NCBI GenBank assembly: GCA_964016885.1
Contig: OZ024750.1
Span: forward strand, 36,146,001 to 36,210,000
Direction: 5' to 3'
From: Eledone cirrhosa
Taxonomy: Eukaryota
DNA length: 64,000 nucleotides
Shown: piece by piece, positions 25,306 through 60,660 of the stretch
Numbering within the stretch: the first letter of the stretch is position 1
Layout of the letters: every line of letters begins with the position of its first letter
Program-made: the position numbers and the translations under genes
Notes under the pieces: generated by a model
The model's database searches: none
The model's input: only the letters and a program-made list of their open reading frames with translations
What the model was told of the DNA's origin: nothing

Positions 25306-25306
<1 letters not shown>

Positions 25307-25420
25307 GTTATTCCGGGTTGAATAGGAGGTAACCACAGTAAGTAAGGTACTCAATACATAGCAGAGTATAAAAGTTTTAATATAGAAGAGCTTCTACAGG
25401 ACTAGAACTGTTTCATTCGT
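25306..25420 (-). mobile_element. truncated Penelope-type terminal module next to (TA)n
   Basis: Minus strand GAAACAGTTCTA remnant, TTGAGTAC box at 25347-25354, abuts (TA)n; cut by SINE A at 25421. Confidence 0.5.
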
Positions 25421-25761
25421 GAGCATGGCTTAGTGGTTAGACCATTGGGTTTGCAATAAAAAGGTTGTGAGTTCAATTCTCAGACCGGGTGATGTGTTGT
25501 TTCCTTGAGCAAGACACTTTATTTCACATTGCTCCAGTTTACTCAGCTGTAGAAATGAGATGATAGGGACTGAGGTTCAAATCAAGCCACTGCAAAGTGG
25601 TTGTGTAGGTGCCACGGCAAAAAAGCACCCAGCACTCACTGTAAATGAGGTTGGTGTTAGGAAGGGCATCCAGCTGTAGAAATCAAGCCAGAATCAGTTC
25701 CCGTCCCACCCTTGCAAGCAGGGAAAAAGCGGACGTAAAATGAAATGATGATGATGATGAT
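25421..25761 (+). mobile_element. SINE family A
   Basis: Head, CORE block, RTE-like tail and (ATG)n. Confidence 0.9.
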
Positions 25762-25901
25762 ATATATATATATATATATGTCCTATGAATATGATAGGAA
25801 TTCTTTCTGTCAGAAGCATTGAAAATACTGGTTAAACATGTGTAATGATAAAGAAGAGAGGCACACATTGTTTCATTTGTCTCTCTCTATATTTTCATAT
25901 T

Positions 25902-26180
25902 CTAGGGCGGGTAAAATTCCCGAGATCCATGGACGAGTTCTCTCCAGCGGTCTCTGTCCCTCATTACCGCTGCCATGTCCTGCGTCTCCAACAGACAAGT
26001 GTCTGTCCTTAGGGCATCAACATACATTAACCTTGGTCTTCCTATTCCAGTGTGTCCATAAAGGGGCTCCCACAGGAGCACTGAGTGCAATGTCAACTCT
26101 GGATGCCGGTGAGCATGTCCAGCTAACCTCAGTCTCCTCTGTGTCACTTTTGAGCTGACTTTTGGGAGGCTCCCATACAG
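25902..26180 (-). mobile_element. RTE-like LINE 3' fragment
   Basis: QRRLRLAGHAHRHPE...LLWEP...GRPRLMYVDAL...MRDRDRWR; second copy at 50161-50405 (+). Confidence 0.85.
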
Positions 26181-26530
26181 CTCATATATATAACCTCATA
26201 TATATTTTCATATAGTGTAGTATATCTCTATTTTCATTGGTAAGATGAGATAGCTCAATGATCTTTACCACCTTCTGTTCTTCGGGAGCAAAAAACAGGA
26301 TGATTAAGGCCAGTTCACGTAGCAGAGCATTTAAAATTGAAAATTTGAAGAAAGCCAATTATATAAAATTATTATTTATTTATTGGTGGATTGGCAGTAT
26401 CAGTAGAGCATCTGGCAACTGGCCAGCATATCCCTAGAAAGACTTCACGCAGTATATATTATATGAGTGGGAGATATATCTTACAGTTGGCGTAGTAAAT
26501 AACTCATGTGACCACTTACATCTCCTGTAG

Positions 26531-26603
26531 ATTTTATCTGAAGAGAACATGTCGACTGATGTTATACAAAAGCCATACATCTTCGAAATACATATAATAA
26601 AAT
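26531..26603 (+). ncRNA. minimal type I hammerhead ribozyme (Penelope-type), core intact
   Basis: Stem I ATTTTAT/ATAAAAT; CTGAAGA; stem II GAACATGT/ACATCTTC; GAAA-TACATA-TA; predicted cleavage after 26596. Confidence 0.8.
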
Positions 26604-27188
26604 ATATAGGGATGGACAAACGTAACCGTCTTATTTGTTTATTATTATAACAAAACTTAGGATAAACATAAATCGTTGAGTGCTTTACATCTGTTATGTA
26701 AAAGTCGGCTGATTTTCAATCGACCAATTTTCTCTAATTGAATATATCTGTGTATGTGTGTGTGTGCGCTTGCTTACAGTATGTATGTATTGTGTTTGCT
26801 TTCTTCCCATCATCATTCCTATTTTAATATTAATGTCTCCATGCTAATATAGATTGGATGAGATTGACGGAAAACCTGTTGCTAGTGATCTTCATCTTGC
26901 TGTATCTTGCCATTTGAGAAGTCTATCACTTTCAGATATCACATCCTTACTTCCTCCATTGCTGTCAGCTCATAGCACTCTTATATCTGATACAAAATAT
27001 AATCTCTATTTATATATCTAAATTCTTATTTTTATTTCAAATGATGTCATTTATAAACAATATCATTATTGGTTATATGTTTACAGTGAGCCAATCACTG
27101 TTTCTCTGTATTTCCAATAGCAACAGAGACAATGGATTGTCTATGCAACTAAAGCAAAAGGTATTTTGATTTTTGAAAATCCCCAGCT

Positions 27189-27375
27189 TAACCCTTTAGC
27201 ATTTAAACCGACCATATCCGGCCAGAATTCTCTCACCTCTTTTTGTTCAAACCAGCTGTAACCAGCCACACATACTGATGTTAAGGTACTGTTCTCAAAA
27301 TAAATAATATCAAAATCTTGTAGATTCAATATTGTGTGAGAAAATATAATAGTAAATATAGAGTAATGTAAATAC
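27189..27375. mobile_element. piggyBac-like MITE, one end truncated
   Basis: TTAACCCTTTAGCATTTAAACC start; family-identical interior. Confidence 0.8.
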
Positions 27376-27689
27376 AGTTTTCATGGTGAATGAGATATGC
27401 ACACATACACACACGCACATATATTTGTAAATGCAAAAAGTAAATGATTGTCAAATATTTTTACCGGCAACTTAGCGATGGGTTTTTACCAGTTCATATT
27501 AAAAATGCAAAACAAAATAACTTTTCTCATGATGTCATCTTAATAGTCTTAGAATTCTACTGATAAATAGCGAGATATTAACCATTTTAAAAATTATTTT
27601 TCTAAGTTATCATATTGCTAGATTTCATTTAATTTTCAAAATAATCAGAATTTAGAGGGTAATACTAAAATAACTGTTTCAATTTATTT

Positions 27690-28388
27690 AGTTACTGTTT
27701 TGAAGGCAAATTAAAGGTTGTTATATAAAATTACTTAGCTGTTGTTTAGAAGGCAAATTAAAGGTCATTGTATGAAGTTATGGCTGCCGAGATTAACTTT
27801 GTCTTTCATCCTTATGGGGTCGATAGAATAAAGTACCAGTGATGCACTGGGATAATTGCTGGCATTGTGCCAAAAGTAGAAACAATTATATAAAATTACT
27901 TAGCTGTTATTTAGAAGGCAAATCAAAGGTTGTTATATAAAATTATTTAGCTGTTATTTAGAAGGCAAATCAAAGGTTGTAATATAAAATTATTTAGCTG
28001 TTATTTAGAAGGCAAATCAAAGGTTGTTATATAAAATTATTTAGCTGTTATTTAGAAGGCAAATCAAAGGTTGTTATATAAAATTATTTAGCTGTTATTT
28101 AGAAGGCAAATCAAAGGTTGTTATATAAAATTATTTAGCTGTTATTTAGAAGGCAAATCAAAGGTTGTAATATAAAATTATTTAGCTGTTATTTAGAAGG
28201 CAAATCAAAGGTTGTTATATAAAATTATTTAGCTGTTATTTAGAAGGCAAATCAAAGGTTGTTATATAAAATTATTTAGCTGTTATTTAGAAGGCATATC
28301 AAAGGTTGTTATATAAAATTATTTAGCTGTTATTTAGAAGGCAAATCAAAGATTGTTATATACAATTATTTAGCTGTTATTTAGAAGG
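27690..28388. repeat. 47-bp minisatellite with SINE B fragment (about 27780-27890)
   Basis: Unit ATAAAATTATTTAGCTGTTATTTAGAAGGCAAATCAAAGGTTGTTAT. Confidence 0.93.
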
Positions 28389-28646
28389 ACTGGATGTACA
28401 GTTAGCACACTCTGGCCCTTCACTGCATGGATACCTGTCTAAAAAGCAATCCAGAGACAACAACAATCAATGCTTGCTGACTAACTGCCCCATCTGCGAT
28501 ACAGGTATGTGCCAGCGGACACATGTGGTATACCAGCGGACACATGTGGTATACCGGATTGAATGCAACAAATGTAAGGAGTTCTACATTGGTAGCACGA
28601 CTCGAGCGTTTCACACTCACATTAAAGAACACCTCAACACACATGC

Positions 28647-28850
28647 TAAAAAACACTTCATTTCACGTTGCTCCAGTATACTCAGCTGGAAATGAGTACC
28701 AGCAATAGCTGGCGGTTTAACCCTGCGATGGACTGGCTTCCTGTCCAGGGGGGGGGGAGTCTTGTACTCTCAGTCGCTTCACGCCATGAACCCAGGATAA
28801 GCACCGGCCAAATGAGCCTTCTGGCTCAAGACAGACTTTAGACTTTTAGA
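28647..28850 (+). mobile_element. 5'-truncated SINE family C inserted in the GIY-YIG ORF
   Basis: 12-bp TSD CAACACACATGC (28635-28646, 28851-28862); matches 3' part of 55374-55660. Confidence 0.9.
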
Positions 28851-29233
28851 CAACACACATGCATCCTCATTCAAAAAACACATTGACAAATGTAGAAACA
28901 TCAACGAACATATTACCGTTACCATTAAAGCCAGTGATAGAAATGTGGGCAACTTAAGAATTAAGAAAGCCTTGCTCATATGTAGACTCAACCCGTAAAT
29001 AAATAATAGACTAGAACTCAGCACACAGTACTTAACATAAAAAGACTCCCCAACAGGCACACAAACTAAACATCTCATACAAAAAGAAAATTGATTTCAT
29101 TGGCAATTGACATCATTCACGTGGAAAGTGAAGTAACCATCGAACAATGCTTGAAAACGACTTAGAAAATATTTAAATCAAGATTTAATCCTAAAGAGAG
29201 AAAATTGGAATATTATCCACTGAAGGCTCCTTA

Positions 29234-29274
29234 AACCCTGATGAAGGAACTTTTAGGTCCCGAAATATTGGACA
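29234..29274 (+). ncRNA. minimal hammerhead motif in the PLE terminal repeat (degenerate stems)
   Basis: CTGATGA-AGGAAC-TTTTA-GGTCCC-GAAATATT; homologous to 60620 and 49265. Confidence 0.65.
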
Positions 29275-29721
29275 GATAAAAGAACTACAACAACAACCAC
29301 AAAACAAAACAAGGATTACTAGGTAACCTTTACTTTTCGTTACCTCATCTGACAGTCCATTTTTGCATTGTTTAGCCTTCTATATATTTCAATGTTATAT
29401 TTCAATGTTATATATTATATAGAATGCTTCAAGCAAACTATAACATTTATAAAGAATATTCATGTTTAATCAAGAGCTATGAAATTTTGTAGATAAATTA
29501 CATAATATTCATTCATGATTTATTCAAAGTAAGCCAACTTATTTTGATAATGTGTTCAGAAAAAAATATCCCTGACACGGTCTCACAGTCCTCCAATCAT
29601 ATTTTCGATAGTAATGACAGTTTAGCTACAATATAAAACAATACAACTAATAAAATAGTATTACTTATACTTTTGTATAAATACTTTAAAACAAACTCCC
29701 TAAACAAGTTAACATTCTTAA

Positions 29722-30112
29722 TAATTGTTTCTACTTTTGGCACAAGGCCAGCAATTATCCCAGTGTATTACTGGTACTTTATTTTATCGACCCCCGTAAG
29801 GATGAAAGGCAAAGTTAACCTCAGCGGGATTTGAACTCAGATCTTAAAGGGCCATAACTCTATGCTACAAAGCATGGTGTCCGACTCTCTACCGATACTG
29901 ACAATCCACTGAACATTCTTAATAATTGTTTCTACTTTTGGCACAAGGCCAGCAATTACCCAATGCATTACTGGTACTTTATTTGATCGACCCCGTGAGG
30001 ATGAAAGGCAAAGTTAACCTCGGCGGGATTTGAACTCAGATCATACAGGGAGGTAACTCTATGCTTCAAAGCATGGCATCCGATCCTCTACCGATACTGC
30101 CAATCCACCACT
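29722..30112 (-). mobile_element. two head-to-tail SINE B copies
   Basis: Separated and flanked by three copies of AACATTCTTAATAAT. Confidence 0.9.
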
Positions 30113-30562
30113 GAACATTCTTAATAATGATTTCTGAAAACCCCTGAAGTTGCTGTTATTTGGAAAGCTTCCCACATTTTCTTCAAAATCTTGATTATCC
30201 TATTTTGAGTAACTCAACAATCTCTCTAACTGTCTCTTGGAGAATGAGGTTCAATTAGGGTTACAATTAGGTTCTTTTTCCTTCAATTTAGTATTGTTGG
30301 GTGGGTTTATTTTATATAGGAACGAAGAATACATACTTATAATAGAGAGCTTCAATTAAGAAGTACATGGCCTAGTGTTTATAGTGTCGAACTCATGATA
30401 AAGTCATGTGTTTGATTCCTGGACTGGATGGGATGGCGCATTGTGTTCTTGTACAAAATACTTTACTCTTTATTTCACGTTGCTCCTTCTGGCAGGAGAT
30501 GCTACTGGTAGACAGTATCAGCAATGGACAGACCAATGGAAACATTGTTCCCTTGGTCCGAT

Positions 30563-34068: not shown

Positions 34069-34639
34069 TTAACCCTTTTGTTACCAGCCTGTCCAAAACC
34101 AGCTCTGGTTCTATGAAATAAAACCACCCATTTTAAAGCTTTCTAATAAAGATCTTCCCACATAATTTCATATAAGAACCTTACTATCTTAATAATGGAA
34201 TCATTTCATTTCATTTCATTTTACGTCCGCTTTTCCCTGCTTGCAAGGGTGGGACGGGAACTGATTCTGGCTTGATTTCTACAGCTGGATGCCCTTCCTA
34301 ACACCAACCTCATTTACAGTGAGTGCTGGGTGCTTTTTTGCCGTGGCACCTCCACGACCACTTTGCAGTGGAATGATAGGGACCCCAGTCCCTATCATCT
34401 CATTTCTACAGCTGAGTAAACTGGAGCAATGTGAAATAAAGTGTCTTGCTCAAGGAAACAACACATCACCCGGTCTGAGAATTGAACTCACAACCTTTCG
34501 ATTGCAAGGCCAATGCTCTAACCACTAAGCCATGTGCCTCCATATAATAATGAATAATTTTCGTAAATCCCTCAAAATTCGTCATTAACTAATTGAAATA
34601 GAATATATTTCATTAGAAATATGGTAATGAAATGGTTAA
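34069..34639. mobile_element. second TTAA-flanked MITE family with nested SINE A (34201-34542, minus)
   Basis: TTAACCCTTTTGTTACC ... GGTAATGAAATGGTTAA imperfect terminal inverted repeats. Confidence 0.7.
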
Positions 34640-36722: not shown

Positions 36723-37338
36723 AGCAGAAGTACCTAACTATAGGTAAACCTGTCGACTTGGCTTTTGTGGACCTTCAGAAAGCTTTTGACAGAGACCCCC
36801 GTTCCATTATCTGCTGGGCTCTTAGAAAACTAGGAATAGATAATTGGCTGTGAGTGCAGTACAAGCCATGTATAGAGGAACAGTCAGCAAGGTTAGAATT
36901 AACAATGAATATAGCGAAGAATTTAGTGTGCAGGTTGGTGTACATCAGGCCTCAGTTCTTAGCCCTTTCCTAATTATTATTGTCCTGCAGGCAATATCAG
37001 AGGAGTTTAAGACTGGCTACCCATGTGAACTCCTGTATACAGATGACCTAACCCCTATAGCTGAATTAAAGATGAATTTCCAAACCTGGCATGGCCTAGA
37101 ATCAAAAGGTCTTAAAGTCAACTTGACAAAGACTAAAGTTCTAGTAAGTAGAAAGGAAAACAGAGCCCAGATCTCGTCAGGGAAATGGCCATTCTCAGTG
37201 TGCAGAAAAGTACTAGGTAGAAATTCCATCCTATGTCCCAAATGCAAATTAGGGGTAGACAAGAGATGTAGAGGAATCTCAGAGAAGCTAACAAAGAACA
37301 TAGGTTTCACATGTGACTGGTGCACAGGGATTGAGTGA
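36722..37338 (+). mobile_element. RTE LINE reverse-transcriptase fragment
   Basis: LAFVDLQKAFDR, VGVHQASVLSPFL, LLYTDD, GLKVNLTKTKVL, Cys-rich tail; frameshifted. Confidence 0.9.
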
Positions 37339-38584: not shown

Positions 38585-38835
38585 TACCAGTAATGTACTG
38601 GGTAATTGCTGGCCTTGTGCCTAAAGTAGAAACAATTATTATTTTTATGGTGGATTGGCAGTATCGGTAGAGGGTCGGACGCCATGCTTTCCAGCATAGT
38701 TAGGTCCCTTTATGATCTGAGTTCAAATCCCGCTGAGGTTGACTTTGCCTTTCATCCTTACGGGGTCGATAAAATAAAGTACCAGTAATGCACTGGGTAA
38801 TTGCTGGCCTTGTGCCTAAAGTAGAAACAATTATT
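38585..38835 (+). mobile_element. SINE B tail plus full SINE B in tandem
   Basis: Family B consensus. Confidence 0.85.
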
Positions 38836-38869
38836 TTTATTATTATAATTATTGATAAAAAAAAATAAG

Positions 38870-39269: not shown

Positions 39270-41450
39270 TATTTTTATTATGCATTATTACTGCTTTACT
39301 GAGCACAGCTCTGTGTGCCTTGGGTATGTGCAGTGTAGTTTTTGCTGATGTGGTTTCTATTGTATTGATAGTACTTTTCGTAATAAGTGTGCAGTGCCTA
39401 GTAGTGCTATCTTTTGTAAGTCCTGGGTTTTGGTTATGTATTTGTCTGTGTGATTTTTTATCATTCCTAGAGCACCGATTATTGTAGGTATCATTTCTGT
39501 TTTCATTTTCCAGATTTGTGTTATTTTTCTATCTCTAAATCTTTATATTTGGAGAGTTTCTCTATTTCCTTGGAAGATATATTGTTATCTGTGGGGATTG
39601 ATACATCTATTAGAATGCATTTGTTTCCTTTGTGGTCTTGGACTATGATATCTGGTCAGTTGGCCTTGATCTCTCTGGCTGTATGTAATGGCATATCCCA
39701 GAGAATGGTTGCTTTGTCATTCTCTGACACTTTTTCTGGTGTTGTTTGTACCATCTTTTGTCTGTTGATATTTCATAATGCTGGCATAATTTCCAGTGTA
39801 TGAAGGTCCCAATGCCTGTGGTTATATTCTTTTTTGGCTAGAGCTGGGCATCCAGAGACTATGCGGTTGATTGTTTCTTCCCTATCTCCACATATTGATT
39901 GTTTCTTCTCTATCTCCACATATTCTATAATTACTTATTGTGCTTTGTTTCATCTGGGAGTAGACTCTGGTCCTGTGCTACAATTAGAAATCCTTCCATC
40001 TCAGAACCAGTTTTGTGTGCTTTCTTTGCCTACTTCCTTTCTATTTAACTTTTTTGAGTATTGACCATGTAAGGATTTCTCTTGTCATCGTTTTAACATG
40101 GCATTCTGGATGTCAGTTTTCAATTTAAATTTTATGTCTTTCACAATTTCTGTTGTTTTTTCTTTGTTTTCATTTTCCTTACAATTATCTCTTAGTCTGG
40201 TTTCTGATTTGAATTTTTTGGCTTCCTTGAAGAGCGAGAACAGTTTTTTGTTTTGTTCATGTTTTATGACTATTTGTATTAGCTTTCCTTTATTTTTTAT
40301 TATCCCTTAGCATTTAAACAGGCCATATCCGGCTAGAATTCTCTCACCTCTTTCTGTTTACACCAGCTGTGACCAGCTGCCCATACTGGCGTTAAGGTAT
40401 TGTTCTCAAAATAAATATCAAAATCTCATAGATTCAATACTAAGTGAGATATTTTGTAAGATAAAGCCTTTTTCACAAAATTACAATAGTATATATAAAG
40501 TAGTGCAAATGCTAAAGGGTTAAGTAGTTTGTAGTCCTACAGTAGTTATTTTATAAGAGTTTTCTAGTTGCATAAGGCCCCTTCCTCCTCGTGTTTTTGG
40601 TAGATATAATCTTTCAACGCCTGATTTTGGTTGGTGTATTCTAAATGTGGTCATTATTTTTCTTGTTTTTCTATCTATTTCAGCTAGTTCTTGTAGTGTC
40701 CAGTTCAGAATGTTAGTAGCTCATTACTGGGATTGCTAAAGTATTGATGACAATCACCTTATTCTTTGCATTTAGTTCAGTTTTGAGTATTAACCTAATT
40801 TTTCTGTAGTATTCTTTTCTAATCTTTTCTTTGATCTCTGTGCGTTGAATCTTGTCTAGATCGTTGATTGTTAAATATTTCTATGTCTGAGTTTGATCTA
40901 TTTCTCTTATTTCTGTTTCTTTATCTAACATATTATTGTTTTTCACTAGTTTCCCTCTCTTCAGAGTTGCCTTGGCACATTTTTCTAATCCAAATTTCAT
41001 ACTTATTTCTTTTGTGAATCCGTGTACAGTTTGGAGCAGTGTTTGGAGTTGTTTTTCATTTGTAGCATACAGCTTCAGATGATCCATATAGAGGAGATAG
41101 TTAATTTTCCTATTGTAGCATTTATACCCTAGCCCAGTTCTGTTTAGTGTTTCAGATAGTGGTGTTAATGTTAGGCAGAAAAGCAGTGGTGATAGGGAGT
41201 CTCCTTGGAATATGCCTCTGTTGATTGGGATAGGCTCTGTTTTTATTGTTTTATCCTTTGTTTGTATCAGCAGAATTGTTTCCATTTACTCATGGCATGT
41301 TTGATAAATGTTGTTATTTTAGCTATTTTATTCATGGCTAGTGTGTTGAGTATCCATATATGGGGAACACTGTCAAATGTGTTTTGGTAATCAATGCAAG
41401 CCATAGTGAGGTTTTTTTTTTTTTTATGCAGTTTTCAGTTATGGCTTTAT
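39270..41450 (-). mobile_element. R4/Dong-clade non-LTR retrotransposon fragment (RT plus RLE), interrupted by a MITE
   Basis: RGIFQGDSLSPLLFCL, LLYMDHLKLYA, MKFGLEKCAK; RLE motif PDIIVQDHKGNKCILIDVSIP...KLSKYKDL. Confidence 0.88.
40303..40523. mobile_element. piggyBac-like MITE nested in the R4-type element
   Basis: CCCTTAGCATTT ... AAATGCTAAAGGGTTAA. Confidence 0.82.
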
Positions 41451-41529: not shown

Positions 41530-42340
41530 CTAAGGTCTCTCACTGCATCATCTCATGTGTTTTACAAAGACAAGACATTCTTTAAAACCCTTGCTTCTAC
41601 CAACAATTGGTATCTTCTGCATAACCTGTAAATTTGCATCAATTCTGAGTTTATTGACACAGCCCTCAAAACTGTCCGATATATATCCCAACACCACTGG
41701 AATTACTAAAACCTTCTTCATCCCCACACAACTTTCCAACCTCCCCCTTCAGTGGCTCATACTTCTCCATCTTTTCATGCTCCTTCATCATCATCATCAT
41801 CATTTCATTTTACATCCACTTTTTCCCTGCTTGCAAGGGTGGGACGGGAACTGATTCTGGCTTGATTTCTACAGCTGGATGCCCTTCCTAACACCAACCT
41901 CATTTACAGTGAGTGCTGGGTGCTTTTTTGCTGTGGCACCTCCACGACCACTTTGCAGTGGAATGATAGGGACCCCAGTCCTATCATCTCATTTCTACAG
42001 CTGAGTAAACTGGAGCAATGTGAAAGTGTCTTGCTCAAGGAAACAACACATCACCCGGTCCGAGAATTGAACTCGCAACCTTTTGATTGCAAGCCCAATG
42101 CTCTAACCACTAAGCCATGTGCCTTCAGAGATGTTATGGATAAAAAATATGAAACAACATCTCTGTCTGATGACCAATCCAGACGTATATTAATGCCTGG
42201 GATCCAGAAACCCTTGGCAATGGAGCAGTTACACCTTGTGGTGTTCATTATACTATTTGCTGGGGCAGATATATCGATAATTTGGGCCACTTTTTTCTTT
42301 GTGTTCACAACTAAAATGTTTGGACTTCTTGCCTCAATCA
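41530..42340 (-). mobile_element. second R4-type RLE fragment interrupted by SINE A (41785-42126)
   Basis: RSPNILVVNTKKKVAQIIDISAP and VIPVVLGYI...QVMQK. Confidence 0.7.
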
Positions 42341-42475
42341 TTTATTGCACTATTATTATCAGGCTAAATAATTTCTTTAATTTCTTTAGTCAAAATACGG
42401 CGATAGCTTACATTTACAATAATTTCAAAACCCGCCCGCTGTTTCGAAATAAAAAAAAATATATATATATATATA

Positions 42476-42665
42476 ACGAAGGAAATGTGGTAAGGAACCA
42501 GGTGGACCATAACGCACCAAAGTACTCAATACTTAGGGTAGTAGAGTGGGTAATAGGAACGAGTAGGACCCCGACAGCTGAGCTCAAGCCGTTTCGACGG
42601 CTAATTCCGTCCAGAATTAGCCGTCGAAACGGCTTGAGCTCAGCTGTCGGGGTCCTATTCGTTCC

Positions 42666-42668
<3 letters not shown>
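42476..42668. mobile_element. Penelope-type terminal module folded back as a 55-bp inverted repeat, between (TA)n tracts
   Basis: Arms 42553-42607 and 42614-42668; hammerhead stem II plus GAAAC remnant; TTGAGTAC box (minus) at 42522-42529. Confidence 0.7.
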
Positions 42669-42716
<48 letters not shown>

Positions 42717-42871
42717 TTTTTTATTAATTTTCATGATTCCAATTTTTTGTTCATCTAATTAAGTAGTAATCAATTATGTATCTGCTTAACATTTGGATGA
42801 AACATGCGTTAATTTATTAAAATGTGATATAATTAACCGTTTTGGTCTTGTGTACTATTATTATTATTATT

Positions 42872-43870
42872 GTTGATTGTCAGTATCGGTAGATGGTTGG
42901 ACGCCATGCTTTGCAGCATAGCTACGTCCCTTTACGATCTGAGTTCAAATCCCACCGAGGTTAACTTTGCCTTTCATCCTTACAGGGCCGATAAAGTAAA
43001 GTACCAGTAATGTACTGGATGATTGCTGGCTTTGTGCCAAAAGTAGAAACAATTTTTTATTAATGTTGGATTGGCAGTATCGGTAGAGCGTCAGACACCA
43101 TGCTTTGCAACATAGAGTTACAACCCTTTATGTTCTGAGTTTAAATCCAACCAATGTTAACATTGTCTTTCATCCTTACAGGGTTGATAAAATAAAGTAC
43201 CAGTAATGTACTGGGTCGATTTAATCTACTTTCCCCTCTCCCCAATTTGCTGGCCTTGTGCCAAAAGTAGAAACAATTATTATTATTATTATTATTTTTG
43301 TGGCCCTTTACATTCTGAGTTCAAATCCTGCTTTCATTCTTATGTGGTCGATAAAATAAAGTACCAGTCACGCACTGGGGTTGATTTAATCGACTTCTCC
43401 TCCCCTCAAAATGGCTGACCTTGTGCCTAAATCAGAAACCATTATTATGCGGTGATTGGCAGTATCGGTAGAGGGACATACATAGTTATGGCCCTTTATG
43501 GTTTGAATCCAAATTCCGTCGAGGTTAACTTTGCCTGTCATCCTTACGGGGTCGATAAAATAAAGTACCAGTAATACACTGGTGTAATTGCTAGCCTTGT
43601 GTCAAAAGTAGAAACAATTATTATTATTATTTGTTTTTGTGTTCACAACTAAAATGTTTTGTGCTCACAACTAAAAGGGTGGTAGATTTGCAGTATCGGT
43701 AGAGGGTCGGCCGCTATGCTTTGACGCATAGAGTTACGGCCCTTGTCATTCTGAGTTCAAATCCCGCCAAGGTTAACTTTGCCTTTCATCCTTACAGGGT
43801 CGATAAAATAAAGTACCAGTAATGCACTGGGTAATTGCTGGCCTTGTGCCTAAAGTAGAAACAATTATTA
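42872..43870 (+). mobile_element. cluster of about 5 co-oriented SINE B copies
   Basis: Family B units starting at about 42875, 43067, 43300, 43450 and 43680, joined by (ATT)n tails. Confidence 0.9.
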
Positions 43871-48371: not shown

Positions 48372-48800
48372 ATGTCGGGTCACTCTTGAGTGCTACTGGT
48401 AACATGTAACCCAGTACAACCTGTCGCATGGTCGGGTTGTTGGCGACTAAACCGTCAACGCCACCAACTTTACTTGGTGAGGAGAGTGATTTTGGACACC
48501 CTGCAGGACAAAAATCAAAACCTGACGAAGGGCGGAAGAACTCATACGAGTCAACGGCCATCCAAAAGTGTGTAAATATGTATATACACATGTACCACGC
48601 GGTTAAACCTTTGTCAGGGCATTCTTCTAGGAGAAGGCAACTCAGGAAACTGGGATAACTCCGATATAAAACCTGCAGCTCAGTAGTTACCGATGATATT
48701 GATCTTTTCTTCTTTTCGGGTTATAGCTACTGTCGCTCAGAGAATGGGATTGGCTCAGTGCACAGTCTTTCCTCACTTAAAAAAAATATCTTCACACACA
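48372..48800 (+). mobile_element. probable LINE (RTE-type) 5' UTR fragment
   Basis: GC-rich island after (TA)n with GGCGACTAA and GGAGAAGGCAACTC motifs resembling RTE 5' ends; no ORF. Confidence 0.4.
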
Positions 48801-49249: not shown

Positions 49250-49430
49250 TCCCATATAGGGATACTCCTTTAATAATGGGTTTTTAAACCCGAAAATATT
49301 TGGGACTAATAAATTTGCTAAGGTAAGATTCTTTTACAATTTTAATTTTCTTTCATGTGCATTGTTTGGTTTTCAAAATTATTAAAATTTGTTTCCTATT
49401 CAACAATGCTTCAAGCAAACTACAACACTC
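49250..49430 (+). mobile_element. decayed copy of the PLE terminal repeat
   Basis: TTAATAA (decayed CTGATGA)-GGGTTT/AAACCC-GAAAATATT; downstream AATGCTTCAAGCAAACTA shared with about 29422 and 61261. Confidence 0.6.
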
Positions 49431-49643
49431 TGATATATATGTATGTGTATCATCATCATCATCGTTTAATGTCCATCTTCCACGCTAGCATGGGTTGGAC
49501 TGGTTTGTCCCATTTGAGGCAAGATTGGTTGGGTGACCATGTCTCACTTGTTTAGAACTGTTTCTGGCAGGTTTTCTATGGCTGGATGCCCTTCCTAACG
49601 CCATACCCCCCCCCCCACACACACACATATATATACACACAAA

Positions 49644-52142: not shown

Positions 52143-52174
<32 letters not shown>

Positions 52175-52577
52175 TATATACAGCTTACACTGCAGGACTA
52201 TCTATTCATCAGCTATTAACTGGAAATCTCCACAATTTCAGCTGTCTTCTGACATTATCACTCTTTCCTTCAGTATCAAGCAGCATTAATTTTGGCAGGG
52301 AATGGCCAGGTTTTATGGACCATGATGTAGCACAATCCTCCCTTTTGTTATCCATGACACTAGCACCAGAATCATGATGCTGTCTTAACCACTTTTATAA
52401 TTCATTCATTATGATGTTTATTCTCTGATCTTTGTTAATGTTTCACTTAAATGCTTCTTTCAGATCGAACCTTGAGCTGATCAATAGCGAAATGCACATC
52501 ACTAATCAATAAACGCAATGAAGCCTTAACCAATCATCCTTGTATTATTATATATACATATATATATATAATAAAAA

Positions 52578-52700: not shown

Positions 52701-52755
52701 ATAATAATATATAAGGGAACAAAGAATCAGTGTTGCATCATATACATATTTAATT

Positions 52756-52847
52756 ACATATTACATATGTTTCACTGTCGATCAGCTCGAGGAACAATCG
52801 ATTAGTGATCGAACGTGACTCTGAAATCGGAAGCTCCTCAGATGTGT
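52756..52847 (-). ncRNA. type I hammerhead ribozyme with long stem II, core intact
   Basis: Minus: ACACAT-CTGAGGA-G(61-nt rod)T-GAAAC-ATAT-GTA-ATATGT; GUA triplet, predicted cleavage after 52762. Confidence 0.78.
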
Positions 52848-53673
52848 GTTAACATGTAGACTCACGTCTAAGAGTGGTAGATTATTATTCCGATTCATTC
52901 TTTTATGCTGCCACACACTCTGTCAAAGGGGTGTGTCATCACCACATTCTTCTTTTTTGAGTTTTCCATCAAATCGCAGTTGGGGAGGCACCTATAAGTT
53001 AGCTATTACTCCTATCCGTGGTCAAGTTGGAATATTCATCCTTGCGCCACGTCTGTCTGAAGTCTGCTGCTATAGTCTTTGAAGTAAGCAGTAAGGAGAT
53101 AAAGCTGTACAGAAGTAAAAAAATAAAGAGGTCAAAGAATAAAGATACAAAATCCTTACAAAGATGCAGAGGCGATAAAAAATTAAACACTATGGACATA
53201 TCAGAATGGTAGTGAGGTGGAAGTAGTGGGTACAGAAAAACAACATAAAGTAATAGAATAAGACCATAAAAAAATATAATTTTTGCAACACGAATTGGTG
53301 CAAAATTTATAGTGCTTATTCATGTGACATCCAACAACCAACCAAATCTTAATACCTCTGGAGCCACTTTTTTCACATAAAACAGGAAGAATTTCCAAAA
53401 CTGTTCAGATTAGAGAAAAAATCACGAGTGCTCTATCTCAATATTATTTTTGAAAAATATTACAAATGCACAACCGGTAAAACCTTAAAACTAAAACTGA
53501 ATTCTAACTAATACTTATTACTAATTTATACTTATTCCTAATTAAACTATTTTTCACTGGCAAAAATTTGTCAACATTTTCTTTTCCTTTTTACTAATAT
53601 ATATATGTGTGTATATATATATATATATATGGGACATTATATTATGTAACATTATTTTAATTTATATTCCTTT

Positions 53674-53797
53674 GAGTTCCGATGAGCCACTCTGTTTTTT
53701 TTAAATATGTTAATTATTTTCAACTGAACCAGATCAATTATGATATATAGTCATCTGATCCAGAAATATTATACGGAGTAGCGAAACAATTGTAAAC
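53674..53797 (+). ncRNA. hammerhead motif with U4C core change and very long stem II loop
   Basis: GTT-CCGATGA-GCCACTCTGT...ACGGAGTAGC-GAAAC-AATT-GTA-AAC. Confidence 0.65.
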
Positions 53798-54341
53798 GGG
53801 CATTATTATTATTAATATTATTATTATTATTATTCTCTACATTCCTTACATCAAACTAAATATGTTGACAATCTTTTAATAATGTCTTCCTTGTGAAATT
53901 TGTGGTCTTGTTTTGCTTAACTAATGAATATATATATATATACATACACACACACGTTTACAAAATGTGGTTGGTGTTAGGAAGGGCATCCAGCCATAGA
54001 AAACATGCCAGATAGTCCTATACGAGTGAGACACTGTCACCCGACCAACCTTGCCTCAAATTGGGACAACTCCTGTCTAACCCATGCTAGTGTGGAAGAT
54101 AGATGTTAAACGCTGATGATAATGATATACATACACATACATATATATACACACATATATATATATGCACACACTCTGTCTCACCTACATATACACACAC
54201 ACACACACTCAGAGCCACACATACATACATACATACATACACACTCTCACGCACACACACACACATACATACAAACACATATACATACCTACACACACAT
54301 AATACAGTGTTAGAATGAAAACAATACAATTTAAAAAAATA

Positions 54342-55075: not shown

Positions 55076-55373
55076 CTGCCTCAGCAAAGGAAACAGTATG
55101 TATTATATCTTGTTCCATCTCTCTTAGACTTGAAGAATTAAACTCCCCTAAAGTGTGTGGTGGATTCTTCAATTATTGGTGATTCCAATAATAATTCTAC
55201 CCCATCATATTAGGCTGATCTATATATAAGTGATGGTAGATAGACATTTTCTCTTTATCTCGTTTAATACTTCTTTAGTTTAATACTTCTTTCGTTTTAA
55301 TACTTCTTTCATTTTAATACTTCTTTCCTTTTAATACTTCTTTAGTTTTTTCTCATTTATATATATATATACG

Positions 55374-55660: not shown

Positions 55661-55695
55661 TTTATATATATGTACATTATATATATATGTACATT

Positions 55696-55772
<77 letters not shown>

Positions 55773-55964
55773 GAGAAAAAAAACTCTAATTCTGGAAGTA
55801 TTAAATGAGATAGAGAAAAAATTTCTATTAAAAATATATTTTAATTAAAATAACAGATTAAAGTTTAAGCAAAGAATCGCTGCTTTCACCCTTAATGGGA
55901 TCTTATATATATATGGGATCTTATATATATATGAGATCTTATATATATAATGGGATCTTATATA

Positions 55965-56362
55965 TAGCTGGAGAGAAATGAGGCAAGCATGCTCCGTTGG
56001 ATGTGCAGTGTAAATGTGCGTGAACGACCCAGCATAAATGTGTTGAGAGAGAAACTGTGTCTGAGAGGGATAGAATGTAGTGTACGGGAGAGGAGACTGA
56101 GGTGGTATGGACATGTGATGCGCATGGAGAATGACCGATGGGTGAAGAAGTGCCAGGAAATGCCAGTTGAAGAAAGACGTGGTAGAGGTAGACCACGAAA
56201 AACATGGGCGGAGGTGGTGAGAACAGACCTCAGATCATTGAAGTTCACGGTGGAGATGACGAGGGACCGTGACGAGTGGAGAGATGCTGTGCTGAATAAG
56301 ACCCGTCCCACCCTTGCAAGCAGGGAAAAGCGGACGTAAAATGATGATGATGATGATGATGA
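55965..56362 (+). mobile_element. RTE LINE 3' end, putative partner of SINE family A
   Basis: MLRWMC...RERRLRWYGHVMRM...RGRGRPRKTW...RDRDEWR; ends CCCGTCCCACCCTTGCAAGCAGGGAAAAGCGGACGTAAA(ATG)n. Confidence 0.92.
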
Positions 56363-56694
56363 TATATATAGGCGGCGAATTGGCAGAGTCGCTGGAACAT
56401 CAGATAGAATGCTTTATTGTATTTAGTCTGGCTCTCTGCTTTCTGAGTTCAAATCCCACCGAGGTCAGCTTTGCCTTTCATCCTTTCGAGGTTGATAAAA
56501 AAAGTACCAGTCTAGTACTGGGGTCGATTCTTCCTCTATATCTCTTTCTCATTTCCTCTCTCTCTCTCACTTTCTATCTTTCTCTGGAAAAAATCTGCTG
56601 TACTGATTGATTCCGCCAGGCTTAAAATGGCCAAGAAACACTGTATGTCAATACAACACCCCTTCGACTCTATCAGGAGTTACAGGACCATACA

Positions 56695-56736
<42 letters not shown>

Positions 56737-56783
56737 AAGTAAAAGTGAAGTAGTTTCAGATGTTCAAGTCCTTTAATAATAAT

Positions 56784-56973
56784 TGTTTCTACTTTTGACA
56801 CAAGGCCAGCAATTACCCAGTACATTACTGGTACTTTATTTTATCGACCCCGTAAGGATGAAAGGCAAAGTTAACCTTGGAGGGATTTGAACCCAGTCCG
56901 TAAAGGGACGTAACTCTATGCTAGAAAGCATGGCGTCCGAACCTCTACTGATACTGCCAATCCACTGCCAATC
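56784..56973 (-). mobile_element. SINE B with 19-bp target-site duplication
   Basis: CAAGTCCTTTAATAATAAT at 56765-56783 and 56974-56992. Confidence 0.9.
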
Positions 56974-56992
56974 CAAGTCCTTTAATAATAAT

Positions 56993-57066
56993 GCTGTCAT
57001 ATATATTTCAATGACGACACTGGCCACACTGTTCTGTGTGCGAGTCTCGTGACATCATCAGACAGC
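56993..57066 (-). ncRNA. hammerhead motif with G at the cleavage position (probably inactive)
   Basis: Minus: GCTGT-CTGATGA-(ACGA/TCGT, ACT/AGT, CACAC/GTGTG rod)-GAAA-TATATA-TG-ACAGC. Confidence 0.7.
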
Positions 57067-57109
57067 TTGTTACATAATAAGGTTGTTTCTGAGGCAATCC
57101 AAATTGAAT

Positions 57110-57410
57110 CGACATGGGAACGGATGAAGTTCGTGCTTTTGGGTTTTTCATCCGTTCCCTTGTGAGTACCAATTCACCCCCACCGGTCTGCGCAAGCGCA
57201 TGTCCGAAGGAAGTTGACCATTAGCACCGCAGATTTCAACGAAATTCGCTGTCAGTGGCCCACCTATGCCTTGCCAAAGTTTACTGCTACCATCGCTACT
57301 GTGGCAGTCAGCCGAAAGCCAGAGGGGATGGGAGGGTGTTAGTTTTTATAGGTCATAATACTACCTTTCACTAAGCGTTGACAGTAAGACTGACCATCAA
57401 CTCATAAGGT
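57110..57410. promoter_or_regulatory. CpG-rich promoter-like island
   Basis: NRF1-like TGCGCAAGCGCA at 57189-57200, ETS-like GGAAGT at 57209-57214, CCAAT, candidate donor AAG|GTAAAA at 57408. Confidence 0.4.
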
Positions 57411-57692
57411 AAAATAAACTTAATTCTAGGTACTATGGTTTTACATAGTAAGTTAAGAGTGAGAGTTGGGAATAAAAATTAAAATTAAAAGTTAAAATCC
57501 TAAATCAAATATCAGAGATTATAAATTAAACAATAAAGAATTCAAAAATTCTAAATTCAAAAAATTTTTCAAGTGATAATTCGGATTAAGTAAAGATATA
57601 CATTGAAGTGAGTAAATAATATGGAGAGAGATGTTTAAGTAATATGTTCTGAGAGATGTTTAAGAAAAGAAACAATAGTGAATAAATGCAAA

Positions 57693-57909
57693 ATCACCCG
57701 GTCCGAGAATTGAACTCACAACCTTTCGATTGCAAGCCCAAGATATATATATATATATCAAACTGAACCTGAGCCGATAAGGTCTGGTTTCTTGGGTATG
57801 TCACTTCTTGGGTATGTCACTTCGCTTTTACTTATTCGATATTTACTCCGTCACTCCTATGTGGAAAAAGTACGTTGAGTGCTTGAATTGAATTGCATCA
57901 ATATTTACC

Positions 57910-57945
<36 letters not shown>

Positions 57946-58269
57946 CAAAGGGATATTTAATTTGTTGGTTATTCAACAAATTTATTTATAACAGATTCGA
58001 AGCACTCTACAAGTTTTCTGGAGTATAATATCAATGATATTAATAAATGAAAACTATATTTATAAAACCATATTTATTTTATTATATATATTTCAAGGGT
58101 ACCAAAATTTTGGTACGCTCTCATCAGATAAAATACAAAATTTGTTTTATAAATAGTGACATACCCAAGAAACCAGACCTTATCGGTTCAGGTTCAGTTT
58201 GATATATATATATATATATCTTGGGCTTGCAATCGAAAGGTTGTGAGTTCAATTCTCGGACCGGGTGAT
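57693..58269. repeat. inverted duplication, arms of about 113 bp (57693-57805 and 58155-58269)
   Basis: Each arm is a SINE A head fragment, (TA)n and CAAACTGAACCTGA.CCGATAAGGTCTGGTTTCTTGGGTATGTCACT. Confidence 0.93.
58075..58135 (-). ncRNA. minimal type I hammerhead ribozyme, core intact
   Basis: Minus: TATTTTAT-CTGATGA-GAGCGTACCAA(AATT)TTGGTACCCTT-GAAA-TATATA-TA-ATAAAATA; perfect 8-bp stem I; predicted cleavage after 58083. Confidence 0.85.
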
Positions 58270-58631
58270 GTGTTGTTTCCTTGAGCAAGACATTTTATTT
58301 CACATTGCTCCAGTTTACTCAGATGTAGAAATGAGATGATAGGGACTGGTGTCCCTATCATTCCACTGCAAAGTGGTCGTGGAGGTGCCACGGCAAAAAA
58401 GCACCCAGCCCACACTGTAAAGTGGATGTGTAGGCACCACAGAAAAAAAGCACCCAGCACTCACTGTAAATGAGGTTGGTGTTAGGAAGGGCATCCAGCT
58501 GTAGAAATCAAGTCAGAATCAGTCCCCATATGAGCAAGACATGGTCAGCTGACCAGACACGGCCCACAACAGGACAACCTGTCTAACTCATGCTAGCATG
58601 GAAGAACGGACGTAAAATGGTGATGATGATG
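58221..58631 (+). mobile_element. SINE A body with a family D-type tail (chimera)
   Basis: Family A to GAATCAGT, then CCCATATGAGCAAGAC...ATGCTAGCATGGAAG. Confidence 0.8.
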
Positions 58632-59419
58632 ATATATATATAATACACATTTAGAGCTTCATATGCAGATATCTTCCTTTTGGAGTTTTATTGTTTCACA
58701 GAGCCTCTGTGACTGACCGCTACCTCTACTGATATTTAGCTGCTACTACCATCACGTGGCTACTTAGTAGTAGTCCACTAGAAAGTTCTATACAAATTCT
58801 ATACCTAAAAATAACTTCAAGCCTCAGCACTTAACTAACTTAATGGAAAGTAAAACTTAGAAGCCTATTAATCATATCGTCAGCAAATTTTTCAATAATA
58901 CTAGCGCTAATTTTTATCATTCTTCTTGAACTGCTACAAAAATAAAAAATAAAAAACAAACAGATTCTTTGATTTTAAAAAGATCTTGAATTTAGCTTTG
59001 AGTTATTAATTTGTGATATATTTTCAATAGGGTTCATATTTGGCAAATATCCAAACCCTGCCAAAAAATGTGATTTTATGGACTTGAATAAAATATTTAA
59101 CTAATTTGGCTGTATATGTAGCAAGATTATTATGTTGGTATATTGCCAGGCAGAATAATTTGAGTCTTCTTTTATAGGAAGAAAATAAGAGGCTATTGCA
59201 AAATATCTATCTCGAAATATTGTGTATGGCACATTGCTGAGAATGTCAATAGTTTGATTACTGACTCTACTCTCAACGTCTCCAGCCTACGGGTTTCTTC
59301 TTTGATCTACTTTACAATCGATAATTTAATTGACTCATACTGGTGTCTTCTTTAAGCAATGAGACTATGGTTGAGAATCCACAACAGATATTTAATGTTG
59401 CTTGCTCTTTAAAGGTGGA

Positions 59420-59789
59420 TCATCATCATCATCATCATCATTTTACGTCCGCTTTTCTCTGCTTGCAAGGGTGGGACGGGAACTGATTCTGGCTTGATTT
59501 CCACAGCTGGATGCCCTTCCTAACACCAACCTCATTTACAGTGAGTGCTGGGTGGTGTTTTGCTGTGGTGCCTACACGTCCCATTTACAGTGTGGGCTGG
59601 GTGCTTTTTTGCCGTGGCACCTCCACGACCACTTTCCAGTGGAATGATAGGGACCCTAGTCCTATCATCTCATTTCTACAGCTGAGTAAACTGGAGCAAT
59701 GTGAAATAAAGTGTCTTGCTCAAGGAAACAGCACATCACCTGGTCTGAGAATTGAACTTACAACCTTTCGATTGCAAGCCCAATGCTCT
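59420..59789 (-). mobile_element. SINE family A, long variant
   Basis: Reverse complement of consensus. Confidence 0.88.
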
Positions 59790-59822
59790 GGATGAAAGTG
59801 TAAATTCCAAATGAACACAGTA

Positions 59823-60580
59823 TAGCTATGAGGAGCAGTGGCCCAAGGTAGCTATGAGGAGCAGTGACCCAAGGTAGCTATAAGGAGCAGTGGCCCAAGG
59901 TAGCTATGAGGAGCAGTGGCCCAAGGTAGCTATAAGGAGCAGTGGCCCAAGGTAGCTATGAGGAGCAGTGACCCAAGGTAGCTATGAGGAGCAGTGACCC
60001 AAGGTAGCTATAAGGAGCAGTGGCCCAAGGTAGCTATGAGGAGCAGTGACCCAAGGTAGCTATAAGGAGCAGTGACCCAAGGTAGCTATAAGGAGCAGTG
60101 ACCCAAGGTAGCTATGAGGAGCAGTGGCCCAAGGTAGCTATAAGGAGCAGTGACCCAAGGTAGCTATAAGGAGCAGTGACCCAAGGTAGCTATGAGGAGC
60201 AGTGGCCCAAGGTAGCTATGAGGAGCAGTGACCCCAGATAGTTATGAGGAGCAGTGACCTCAGGTAGTTATGAGGAGCAGTGGCCCAAGGTAGCTATAAG
60301 GAGCAGTGACCCAAGGTAGCTATGAGGAGCAGTGGCCCAAGGTAGCTATGAGGAGCAGTGGCCCAAGGTAGCTATGAGGAGCAGTGGCCCAAGGTAGCTA
60401 TGAGGAGCAGTGGCCCAAGGTAGCTATGAGGAGCAGTGGCCCAAGGTAGCTATGAGGAGCAGTGACCCAAGGTAGCTATAAGGAGCAGTGACCCCAGATA
60501 GTTATGAGGAGCAGTGACCTCAGGTAGTTATAAGGAGCAGTGACCCCAGGTAGCTATGAGGAGCAGTGACCCCCAGGTAA
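59823..60580. repeat. 26-bp minisatellite, about 29 copies
   Basis: Unit TAGCTATGAGGAGCAGTGGCCCAAGG. Confidence 0.97.
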
Positions 60581-60619
60581 TTATTAGTTTTGGCTAACCA
60601 GTTTTCTCTGATTTCCTTA

Positions 60620-60660
60620 TATTCTGATGAAGGGAATTTTAAGTCGTGAAATATTAGGTC
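60620..60660 (+). ncRNA. degenerate hammerhead in a solo PLE terminal repeat (about 60600-61290, split by a Helitron)
   Basis: CTGATGAAGGGAATTTTAAGTCGTGAAATATTA; downstream sequence aligns with 29275-29450. Confidence 0.55.

What the first reader, a model, noticed from the sequence alone, without database searches (positions are those of the whole stretch)
25306..60660. Dispersed population of diverse hammerhead-bearing short elements ending at (TA)n
Seen: about 9 CTGANGA...GAAA hammerhead motifs on both strands within 35 kb (26531+, 29234+, 42590, 49265+, 52756-, 53674+, 56993-, 58075-, 60620+). Most have a tiny helix III with a near-palindromic loop (TATATA, TACATA, ATAT, AATT). Stem sequences are unrelated between most copies yet still pair, so the fold is kept across at least 5 families. 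Several share a T(T/A)GAGTRC box 60-80 nt downstream and end at (TA)n/(TG)n. Established: Penelope-like elements carry minimal type I hammerheads of this kind in their terminal repeats, thought to act as dimers. Inference: these are non-autonomous, microsatellite-targeting, ribozyme-processed retroelements or solo terminal repeats (retrozyme-like); only one sits beside coding sequence.
Basis: partly seen in the sequence, partly recalled or inferred. Interest (0 to 1): 0.8.

Follow-up and report, generated by a model that had tools for sequence, protein, structure and literature searches.

The report
Penelope retroelement tails carrying hammerhead ribozymes
This stretch of animal (likely octopus) DNA holds about ten decayed hammerhead-ribozyme motifs that are likely the leftover ends of several families of Penelope-like jumping genes, a known arrangement, although a small conserved hairpin behind the ribozyme may be an undescribed signal that the element's copying enzyme would recognise.

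Summary
The hammerheads are real: 5 strict type I motifs against 0.23 in shuffles (0 of 150 reach 5). Of the 9 listed sites, 7 have a (near-)complete core, 49265 is a decayed U3-A8 variant and 42590 is a 3' half in a fold-back. I add 62761. Four sites (29238, 49270, 60624, 62761) are pLTRs of a Nematis-like Penelope-like element (PLE): one follows a GIY-YIG remnant, and all four carry the ORF start MLQ(A/V)NY seen in full-length RT+EN relatives. The other six end at (TA)n/(TG)n and resemble Hydra-clade ends, but no ORF links them. Public reads show that two of these families are highly repeated, and their majority alleles restore the cut site and helix II. The TWGAGTRC box alone is not enriched. 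It is the 3' strand of a bulged hairpin that I also see in published Hydra consensus sequences but not in that paper's text. A C·C mismatch in helix II is kept across 4 different stems. No tandem retrozyme units are present. A dedicated non-autonomous family is not shown; 5'-truncated PLE ends explain the data. The scan has noted PLE hammerheads in other genomes (358 notes); no meaningful look-alike of these two elements was returned.

The parts
25306..25418 (-). PLE-type 3' end (group D): 3' half of a hammerhead (GAAA 25414-25411), bulged hairpin with box 25347-25367, ends at (TA)n 25251-25305; cut on its 5' side by a SINE
26519..26760 (+). Family B hammerhead (C3 26538, predicted cut after 26596; loop III TACATA; extended helix I; C·C at helix II pair 4), box 26676-26683, ends near (TG)n about 26755
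28384..29040 (+). Decayed C-terminal linker + GIY-YIG endonuclease of a Nematis-like PLE; 5'-truncated; split by a SINE with an 11-bp target duplication (28636-28646 / 28852-28862); in-frame stop at 28996-28998; end stop 29038-29040
   Evidence: Pfam GIY-YIG E=6e-5; tblastn 55-57% to P0153
29236..29450 (+). Family A pLTR: minimal hammerhead (C3 29238, extra A, cut after 29269), 155-nt leader, ORF start MLQANYN at 29424
42458..42714 (-). Group D end between two (TA)n tracts: fold-back (inverted 5'-truncated copy, arms 42553-42668) broken in helix II, 3' half of a hammerhead (position 17 at 42586), hairpin with box 42522-42547
49266..49435 (+). Family A variant pLTR: U3-A8 core variant with G5A (49270), cut after 49301, ORF start at 49406, ends at (TA)n
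52489..52520 (+). Candidate half hammerhead (GAAA-TGCACA-TC) related to 52841 and facing the same (TA)n; core box not found
   Evidence: not tested further
52745..52865 (-). Hammerhead, C3 52841, long helix II, loop III CATATG, cut after 52762; a SINE lies between it and (TA)n about 52570
53676..53930 (+). Hammerhead with U4C (53679), 9-pair helix II with a long loop, loop III CAATTG, cut after 53794; lies between two (TA)n tracts
56993..57066 (-). Family C hammerhead (C3 57061; U·U closing pair, C·C at pair 4; G17 private, C17 in other copies); a SINE with a 19-bp duplication is inserted just 3' of it
57819..57912 (+). 3' tail of a second family C copy with bulged hairpin and box (57845-57882), ending at (TA)n 57913-57943
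   Evidence: opposite-strand joint 56990-57819 in 1 X1 contig and 66 X6 reads; BLAST
57944..58167 (-). Family B end: hammerhead (C3 58127, cut after 58083, loop III TATATA, C·C at pair 4, extended helix I), hairpin with box 58002-58024, ends at the same (TA)n; highest depth in the laid stretch
60622..61290 (+). Family A pLTR (C3 60624, cut after 60655, helix II decayed) split by an unrelated insertion of about 480 bp starting near 60767; ORF start at 61263
62601..62794 (.). Family A pLTR body on the - strand (ORF start 62618) joined to its hammerhead inverted on the + strand (62757-62794, U4A); the junction lies in the helix I arms, next to the predicted cut site; abuts an RTE-like LINE fragment

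Best explanation
The ten motifs are decayed type I hammerhead folds that likely mark the 3' ends (pseudo-LTRs) of 5'-truncated copies of several Penelope-like retrotransposon families in a likely octopod genome. Shown: family A (4 sites) has the order endonuclease end - hammerhead - leader - first codons of the next ORF, and its full-length relatives encode RT plus a C-terminal GIY-YIG with Nematis-type motifs. Families B and C are highly repeated and keep the fold while the stems change. Inferred: the element's protein binds its RNA near the 3' end, probably at the bulged hairpin 55-80 nt behind the ribozyme. It nicks AT-rich DNA, (TA)n for the B/C/D-type families, and starts reverse transcription inside the RNA. 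Synthesis usually stops early or folds back, so most copies keep only the last 150-300 nt, which contain the ribozyme. Cleavage would need two ribozymes pairing through the palindromic helix III (tandem precursor, probably protein-assisted), so these solo copies would be mostly inactive. B, C, D and the two singletons are likely Hydra-clade-type ends whose ORFs are not in the window.
For: GIY-YIG remnant 200 nt upstream of hammerhead 29238. Its relatives carry RVT_1 upstream of the endonuclease region: 8 of 10 scanned have RVT_1 and 8 of 10 have GIY-YIG. The closest named ones are Octopus bimaculoides proteins at 69-70%. Full-length relatives P0153/P0154 begin MLQANY, and that codon run occurs 4 times in the window (0 in 100 shuffles), each tied to a family A hammerhead. 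P0153 has SDKGxEFxV and KTHK like the Nematis rows of Craig et al. Fig. S2/S7, unlike Neptune ADKGGA and KIHK (compared by eye). Laid contigs: summed depth 2.9 million at the 58127 ribozyme, 90,000 at 57061 and 1.5 million on the SINE, against 580-1,800 in the lowest bins. Majority alleles restore C17 and the helix II pair at 57046. Family B runs on upstream in 18 contigs. Fold-backs occur at 42590 and 62761 and as opposite-strand joints in other copies, matching published PLE anatomy (PMC8557442 Fig. 2 legend). Hydra hammerheads close helix II with U·U in 14 of 26 rows and G·U in 3 (File S2), as do 57061 (U·U) and 58127, 52841 (G·U); nearly all Hydra families target (TA)n. Helix III palindromes pair as dimers at -3.2 to -7.0 kcal/mol, against +2.4 to +4.7 as monomer hairpins.
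Against: No ORF links families B, C, D, 52841 or 53679 to an autonomous element, so their clade and autonomy are unproven. Their helix III is a perfect 8-nt palindrome, whereas Hydra rows show 9-10 nt. A similar hairpin also appears in one Naiad consensus, so it is not clade-diagnostic. Single hairpins fold no better than shuffles (z +0.6 to -1.6 for B/C/D). Copy number was tested for 2 of the non-A families only. Summed depth is not a copy count, and the X6 depth is probably biased by a restriction site in one subfamily. Only 40 of 188 variant rows and 24 of 955 loose ends were displayed, so compensatory partners could not be checked fully.
Confidence: 0.78

Rival explanations
1. Family B (and perhaps C and D) is a dedicated non-autonomous short element, a hammerhead-bearing SINE-like derivative mobilised in trans by a Hydra-type PLE and amplified to SINE-level copy number.
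For: Depth at the 58127 ribozyme exceeds that of the abundant SINE in X1. The family is nearly absent from organism B (X4 depth 0-54). No ORF remnant lies beside any of the 6 non-A copies. The position that is ATG in family A reads GTG/GTA in these families.
Against: 18 contigs extend beyond the window copy's 5' end, and 5' ends differ between copies. Heavy 5' truncation gives the same picture, and solo minimal hammerheads far outnumber full PLEs in other genomes (PMC4209133).
Confidence: 0.15
2. They are monomer offspring of non-LTR retrozymes (tandem hammerhead repeats that make circular RNA).
For: Retrozymes derive from PLE pLTRs and leave dispersed monomers (bioRxiv 10.64898/2026.07.22.740005). 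Families B and C have a longer helix I, as canonical hammerheads do.
Against: No tandem unit with a hammerhead in the window. No head-to-tail joint of unit length among the 15 of 35 joints shown. Family A is tied to coding sequence.
Confidence: 0.05
3. The motifs are chance matches in AT-rich, repeat-rich DNA.
For: Relaxed descriptors give about 3 chance hits per window; Rfam finds no hammerhead.
Against: Strict count 5 vs 0.23, multi-copy families whose majority alleles repair the fold, and linkage to a PLE ORF.
Confidence: 0.02

Closest known systems
Minimal type I hammerheads in the pLTRs of metazoan PLEs (Cervera and de la Pena 2014, PMC4209133; results and discussion read)
   Same: [quoted passage not shown]
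   Different: Families B and C have an 8-nt palindrome, helix I of 5-8 bp with an extension, and a fixed C·C in helix II. Local density here is about 10 in 37 kb; the parts read give at most about 9,000 per genome.
Nematis-clade PLEs (as aligned in Craig et al. 2021, PMC8557442, supplement Figs S2/S7)
   Same: C-terminal GIY-YIG with CCHH residues, a cysteine linker, and SDKGxEFxV and KTHK motifs in the full-length relatives of family A.
   Different: The linker reads C-x4-CP-x6-C rather than a strict Cx2-5CxxC; no tree with reference Nematis sequences was built.
Hydra-clade PLEs (Craig et al. 2021; section 11 and Files S1, S2, S7 read), including Hydra-1_Obim from O. bimaculoides
   Same: (TA)n targets, a hammerhead 100-150 nt from the 3' end, U·U or G·U closing helix II, helix I of 4-7 bp, and the same bulged hairpin behind the ribozyme in 3 of 6 novel consensus sequences (a weak fourth; 2 end too early).
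   Different: No Hydra ORF was found here; the window hammerheads do not match the Hydra-1_Obim row of File S2; no C·C mismatch is seen in the File S2 rows.
Non-LTR retrozymes (Li et al. 2026 preprint, introduction, methods and passages read; Cervera 2020 seen as search listing only)
   Same: Non-coding, type I hammerhead, related to pLTRs, dispersed monomers.
   Different: No tandem units here; the ORF start and endonuclease remnant are retained in family A.

Membership tests
Type I hammerhead ribozyme | CUGANGA + GAAA + UH core with three helices, helix I open | tested here: met
   5 exact cores vs 0.23 expected; 4 more complete folds with one core or cut-site change (53679, 57061, 49270, 62761); 42590 is a half
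Type I hammerhead ribozyme | Self-cleavage at H17 | not testable with these tools
   Needs an in vitro assay
EN+ Penelope-like element (family A) | RT + GIY-YIG in one ORF | tested here: met
   GIY-YIG in the window; RT + GIY-YIG in full-length relatives; the RT part is truncated away in this copy
EN+ Penelope-like element (family A) | pLTR = hammerhead plus the start of the next copy's ORF | tested here: met
   MLQ(A/V)NY codons tied to the hammerhead in 4 of 4 copies
EN+ Penelope-like element (all) | 5' truncation and inverted 5'-truncated copies | tested here: met
   42590 and 62761 fold-backs; opposite-strand joints
EN+ Penelope-like element (all) | Retained intron in the pLTR/5' UTR | tested here: inconclusive
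   Donor-like AG|GTAA in 3 of 4 family A copies; no conserved acceptor
Nematis clade (family A) | RT phylogeny and linker motifs | tested here: inconclusive
   Motifs match by eye; no reference tree
Hydra clade (families B, C, D) | RT with DKT/RWK, EN without CCHH, CxCx5C linker | not testable with these tools
   No ORF next to these copies; no genome held
Hydra clade (families B, C, D) | (TA)n insertion and a hammerhead near the 3' end | tested here: met
   6 of 6 non-A sites within 110-265 nt of a TA/TG run; this trait is shared with Naiad and Neptune
Non-LTR retrozyme | Two or more tandem units, each with a hammerhead | tested here: not met
   None in the window; not testable genome-wide
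Non-LTR retrozyme | Circular RNA with a junction at the cut site | not testable with these tools
   Needs RNA data

The most novel reading that the evidence does not exclude
(TA)n-targeting PLEs share an undescribed two-part RNA 3' end: a hammerhead variant with an invariant C·C mismatch at helix II pair 4, followed by a conserved bulged hairpin (RCUC-stem-loop-stem-2-nt bulge-GAGY) that is the reverse transcriptase's loading signal. In this octopod one such end has been amplified to SINE-level numbers (tens of thousands or more), making it one of the most ribozyme-dense genomes known.
Probability: 0.3. Interest if true: 0.6.

Novelty: new member of a known kind. Interest (0 to 1): 0.36.

Why it matters
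The main finding is ordinary: solo PLE hammerheads scattered through animal genomes are described, and PLE expansion and (TA)n-targeting Hydra/Naiad families are known in octopus. A 2026 repeat annotation of O. vulgaris mentions neither ribozyme nor hammerhead. What is open is how PLE RTs recognise their RNA and what the ribozyme is for. The bulged hairpin recurs with changed stem sequences in 4-5 window copies and 3 published Hydra consensus sequences, which gives a concrete, mutable candidate for the RT-binding site. The C·C mismatch gives a testable tertiary or dimer contact. The junction at 62761 hints that cleaved RNA can serve as a template.

Tried and rejected
No whole genome is held, so there was no genome-wide scan. 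Rfam: no hammerhead at E<=5. Word-index protein search with the endonuclease fragment: 0 of 10 candidates; the exhaustive search then found 214 relatives. Flanking DNA of relatives: none in two metagenome scans and one viral scan. The family B DNA pattern gave 0 hits in viral and prokaryote contigs. No RNA holder was listed among 8 runs; this is no evidence either way. The box as a splice acceptor was rejected: AG precedes the ATG in only 1 of 4 family A copies. The box as an enriched motif was rejected. The box as an ORF start in B/C/D is unsupported: GTG/GTA, no matching N-terminus among the long relatives listed. No Hydra-type ORF remnant was found by a motif scan of six frames. CTGANGA at 48522+, 11052+ and 5397- and relaxed hits 35813+, 33347-, 9723-, 6140- were treated as chance. 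No read or contig end at the 58127 cut site among the rows shown, but most rows were hidden and no run was on record as RNA. Lunse et al. (RNA Biol 14:1499) is not held; I saw it only as cited in PMC6765202, and it may already describe the C·C variant. Supplements of the bioRxiv preprint are closed. Literature searches for the hairpin and the C·C mismatch showed no description; these are word searches of an open-access library only.
Full report
Setting. The window is AT-rich animal DNA made of satellites, a tRNA-headed SINE and LINE fragments. No genome is held. The closest named relatives of a protein remnant in it are Octopus bimaculoides proteins at 69-70% identity, so an octopod host is likely; that is an inference.

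Checking the observation. All 31 CTGANGA sites were listed and a type I descriptor applied. With an exact core, H17, helix I of at least 2 and helix II of at least 3 pairs there are 5 hits (26538+, 29238+, 52841-, 58127-, 60624+), all within 25306-63000. In 150 block dinucleotide shuffles the mean is 0.23 and none reaches 5; 100 decoy cores give a mean of 0.07. Allowing one core mismatch adds 53679+ (U4C) and 62761+ (U4A). Adding the published U3-A8 core variant (PMC4209133) recovers 49270+ with G5A. That relaxed descriptor gives 9 hits against 3.25 in 100 shuffles, and I judge 4 of the 9 to be chance. 57061- fails only on G17 and its first helix II pair. 42590 has no CUGANGA: it is a fold-back with 55 of 58 matching bases that breaks in helix II. 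The descriptors were tuned on these motifs, so the odds are optimistic. Rfam finds no hammerhead.

Family A is a PLE pLTR. A GIY-YIG remnant (E=6e-5) spans 28384-29040, is split by a SINE with an 11-bp duplication and ends 200 nt before hammerhead 29238. An exhaustive search found 214 relatives; of 10 scanned, 8 carry RVT_1 and 8 carry GIY-YIG. Full-length 859-aa relatives start MLQANY. The matching codons occur four times in the window, at 29424+, 49406+, 61263+ and 62618-, and never in 100 shuffles. They lie 155 and 105 nt behind the cut sites of 29238 and 49270 and behind an insertion that splits the 60624 copy. The order EN end - hammerhead - leader - ORF start - element end is the pLTR anatomy of PLEs (PMC8557442, PMC11167929). 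Motifs SDKGxEFxV and KTHK in P0153 match the Nematis rows of Craig et al.'s alignment and not the Neptune rows (by eye, no tree). At 62761 the ribozyme is inverted against its own pLTR body, and the body begins at the 3' arm of helix I, directly behind the predicted cut. This fits a cleaved RNA used as template followed by a strand switch, but it is one case, and a DNA inversion or ordinary template switch is not excluded. Only 1 of the 4 family A copies ends at (TA)n.

The other six sites. 26538 and 58127 (family B) share helix I and differ in helix II; both have an extended helix I with different sequences. I laid four runs on 56990-58215 at 80% likeness. In X1 the summed depth is 2.9 million at the 3' half of the 58127 ribozyme, 0.3-0.8 million in the neighbouring bins, about 90,000 at 57061, 1.5 million on the SINE piece and 580-1,800 in the lowest bins. 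The tool warns that this is no copy number; it shows that both families are highly repeated. Organism B (X4) shares family C and the SINE but almost none of family B. Majority alleles repair the window copy of 57061: C17 in 66351 of 66464 (X1) and 365 of 391 reads (X6), and the helix II pair at 57046 in 287 of 311 reads. Loop III of family B varies at 58087 as expected from CpG decay of a TACGTA palindrome (inference). Family B continues upstream of the window copy in 18 contigs. An opposite-strand joint links the 57061 family to the piece at 57819-57912, so two PLE ends face the same (TA)n there. Only 40 of 188 variant rows, 15 of 35 joints and 24 of 955 loose ends were displayed, and X6 is RAD data, probably biased by a restriction site.

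Two structural details. First, pair 4 of helix II is C·C in 26538, 58127 and 57061, whose flanking pairs all differ, and again in a further family B stem read from 5451 loose ends in X6. 52841 has U·C there and 53679 has no such mismatch. In 4 copies it is the 3' strand of a bulged hairpin, ACTC-stem-loop-stem-TT/TA-GAGT, with different inner stems; 26676 is a decayed fifth. The count is only mildly above shuffles (4 vs 1.31; 8 of 200 reach 4), but all 4 lie 38-66 nt before (TA)n, against a background of 0.12. Individually these hairpins fold no better than shuffles. Reading Craig et al.'s File S7 by eye, the same hairpin, with GCTC/GAGC as the outer stem, follows the hammerhead in Hydra-2_Amil and Hydra-2_Ajap and, with one mismatch, in Hydra-1_Crog. 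It is weak in Hydra-1_Amil and not covered in the other 2 of 6. One Naiad consensus shows a similar hairpin. The paper's main text has no 'hairpin', 'stem-loop' or 'bulge'. Family A has an analogous stem, GCATTG/CAATGC, holding its ATG in 2 of 3 copies folded. Hydra hammerheads close helix II with U·U in 14 of 26 rows, as 57061 does, and nearly all Hydra families insert in (TA)n. All 6 non-A sites lie within 110-265 nt of a TA/TG run. They are therefore likely Hydra-type ends, but no ORF was found to prove it.

Mechanism. Shown: the folds, the family structure, the ORF link for family A, repetition of B and C, fold-backs and microsatellite ends. From published work: PLE RT starts inside its RNA downstream of the hammerhead at AT-rich nicks; cleavage is protein-assisted and not required for insertion in vitro (PMC11167929); minimal hammerheads cleave weakly and only as dimers (PMC4209133). 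Inferred: early termination or fold-back leaves 150-300-nt ends, which is why the ribozyme is over-represented; the 8-nt palindromes favour dimer helix III (-3.2 to -7.0 kcal/mol vs +2.4 to +4.7 as monomer); the hairpin may be the RT-binding site. Solo copies with core changes are probably dead.

Comparison and verdict. This works like, and for family A is, the known PLE pLTR hammerhead. It fails the tandem-unit test for retrozymes in this window. A dedicated non-autonomous family remains possible for B (0.15). PLEs are a known large part of octopus genomes (PMC13282606, passages read), and Hydra and Naiad families from Octopus are published. A search for octopus + Penelope + hammerhead listed 4 papers, of which only Craig et al. 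concerns PLE ribozymes by its listing. Lunse et al., which surveys small PLE hammerhead variants, could not be read. Earlier notes of this scan mention hammerhead and Penelope 358 times in at least 29 genomes. None was on this genome, and sequence look-ups gave one unrelated 3-of-73-word match and nothing. Verdict: new members of a known kind, with two modest structural leads; interest 0.36.

Noticed in passing
window 57693-57805 and 58155-58269: A 115-bp inverted duplication (97%) of SINE piece + (TA)n + 46 nt encloses the two converging PLE ends. It may be an insertion by-product or an assembly fold-back; no laid record spanned it and bin 57769-57809 had the lowest depth.
   Followed up: partly
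window 32000, 32273, 60767-61245: A repeat starting with TC(TA)nAAAACTGAGG, possibly a non-autonomous Helitron-type head (label recalled, not tested); one copy splits the 60624 pLTR.
   Followed up: no
window, about 25 copies, e.g. 29711-30135, 38585-38852, 42864-43296, 56774-57005: An abundant SINE that inserts in (ATT)n tracts with clear target duplications, including inside PLE ends; a second SINE-like repeat carries weak tRNA matches (171-228, 3271-3328, 34475-34532, 42060-42117).
   Followed up: no
window 36844-37338, 40881-41285, 55968-56339, 62790-63352: LINE fragments (RVT_1 hits for the first two; the others RTE-like by recalled motifs).
   Followed up: no
window 57100-57480: Sequence upstream of the family C hammerhead is also repeated (X1 depth 5,000-76,000) and has no ORF; it may be a long 3' UTR or another element.
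   Followed up: partly
window 1740-2139, 6177-7144, 7685-9477, 17022-18258, 18700-24543, 27886-28388, 59823-60572: Large minisatellite arrays with units of 13, 56, 69, 17, 16/32, 47 and 26 bp; the 47-bp array abuts the 5'-truncated end of the GIY-YIG remnant.
   Followed up: no
protein P0002 / P0151 (Octopus bimaculoides): A PLE RT-thumb/GIY-YIG piece is fused to a MAP7-domain protein in the gene model; it may be an annotation merge or an exonised PLE.
   Followed up: no
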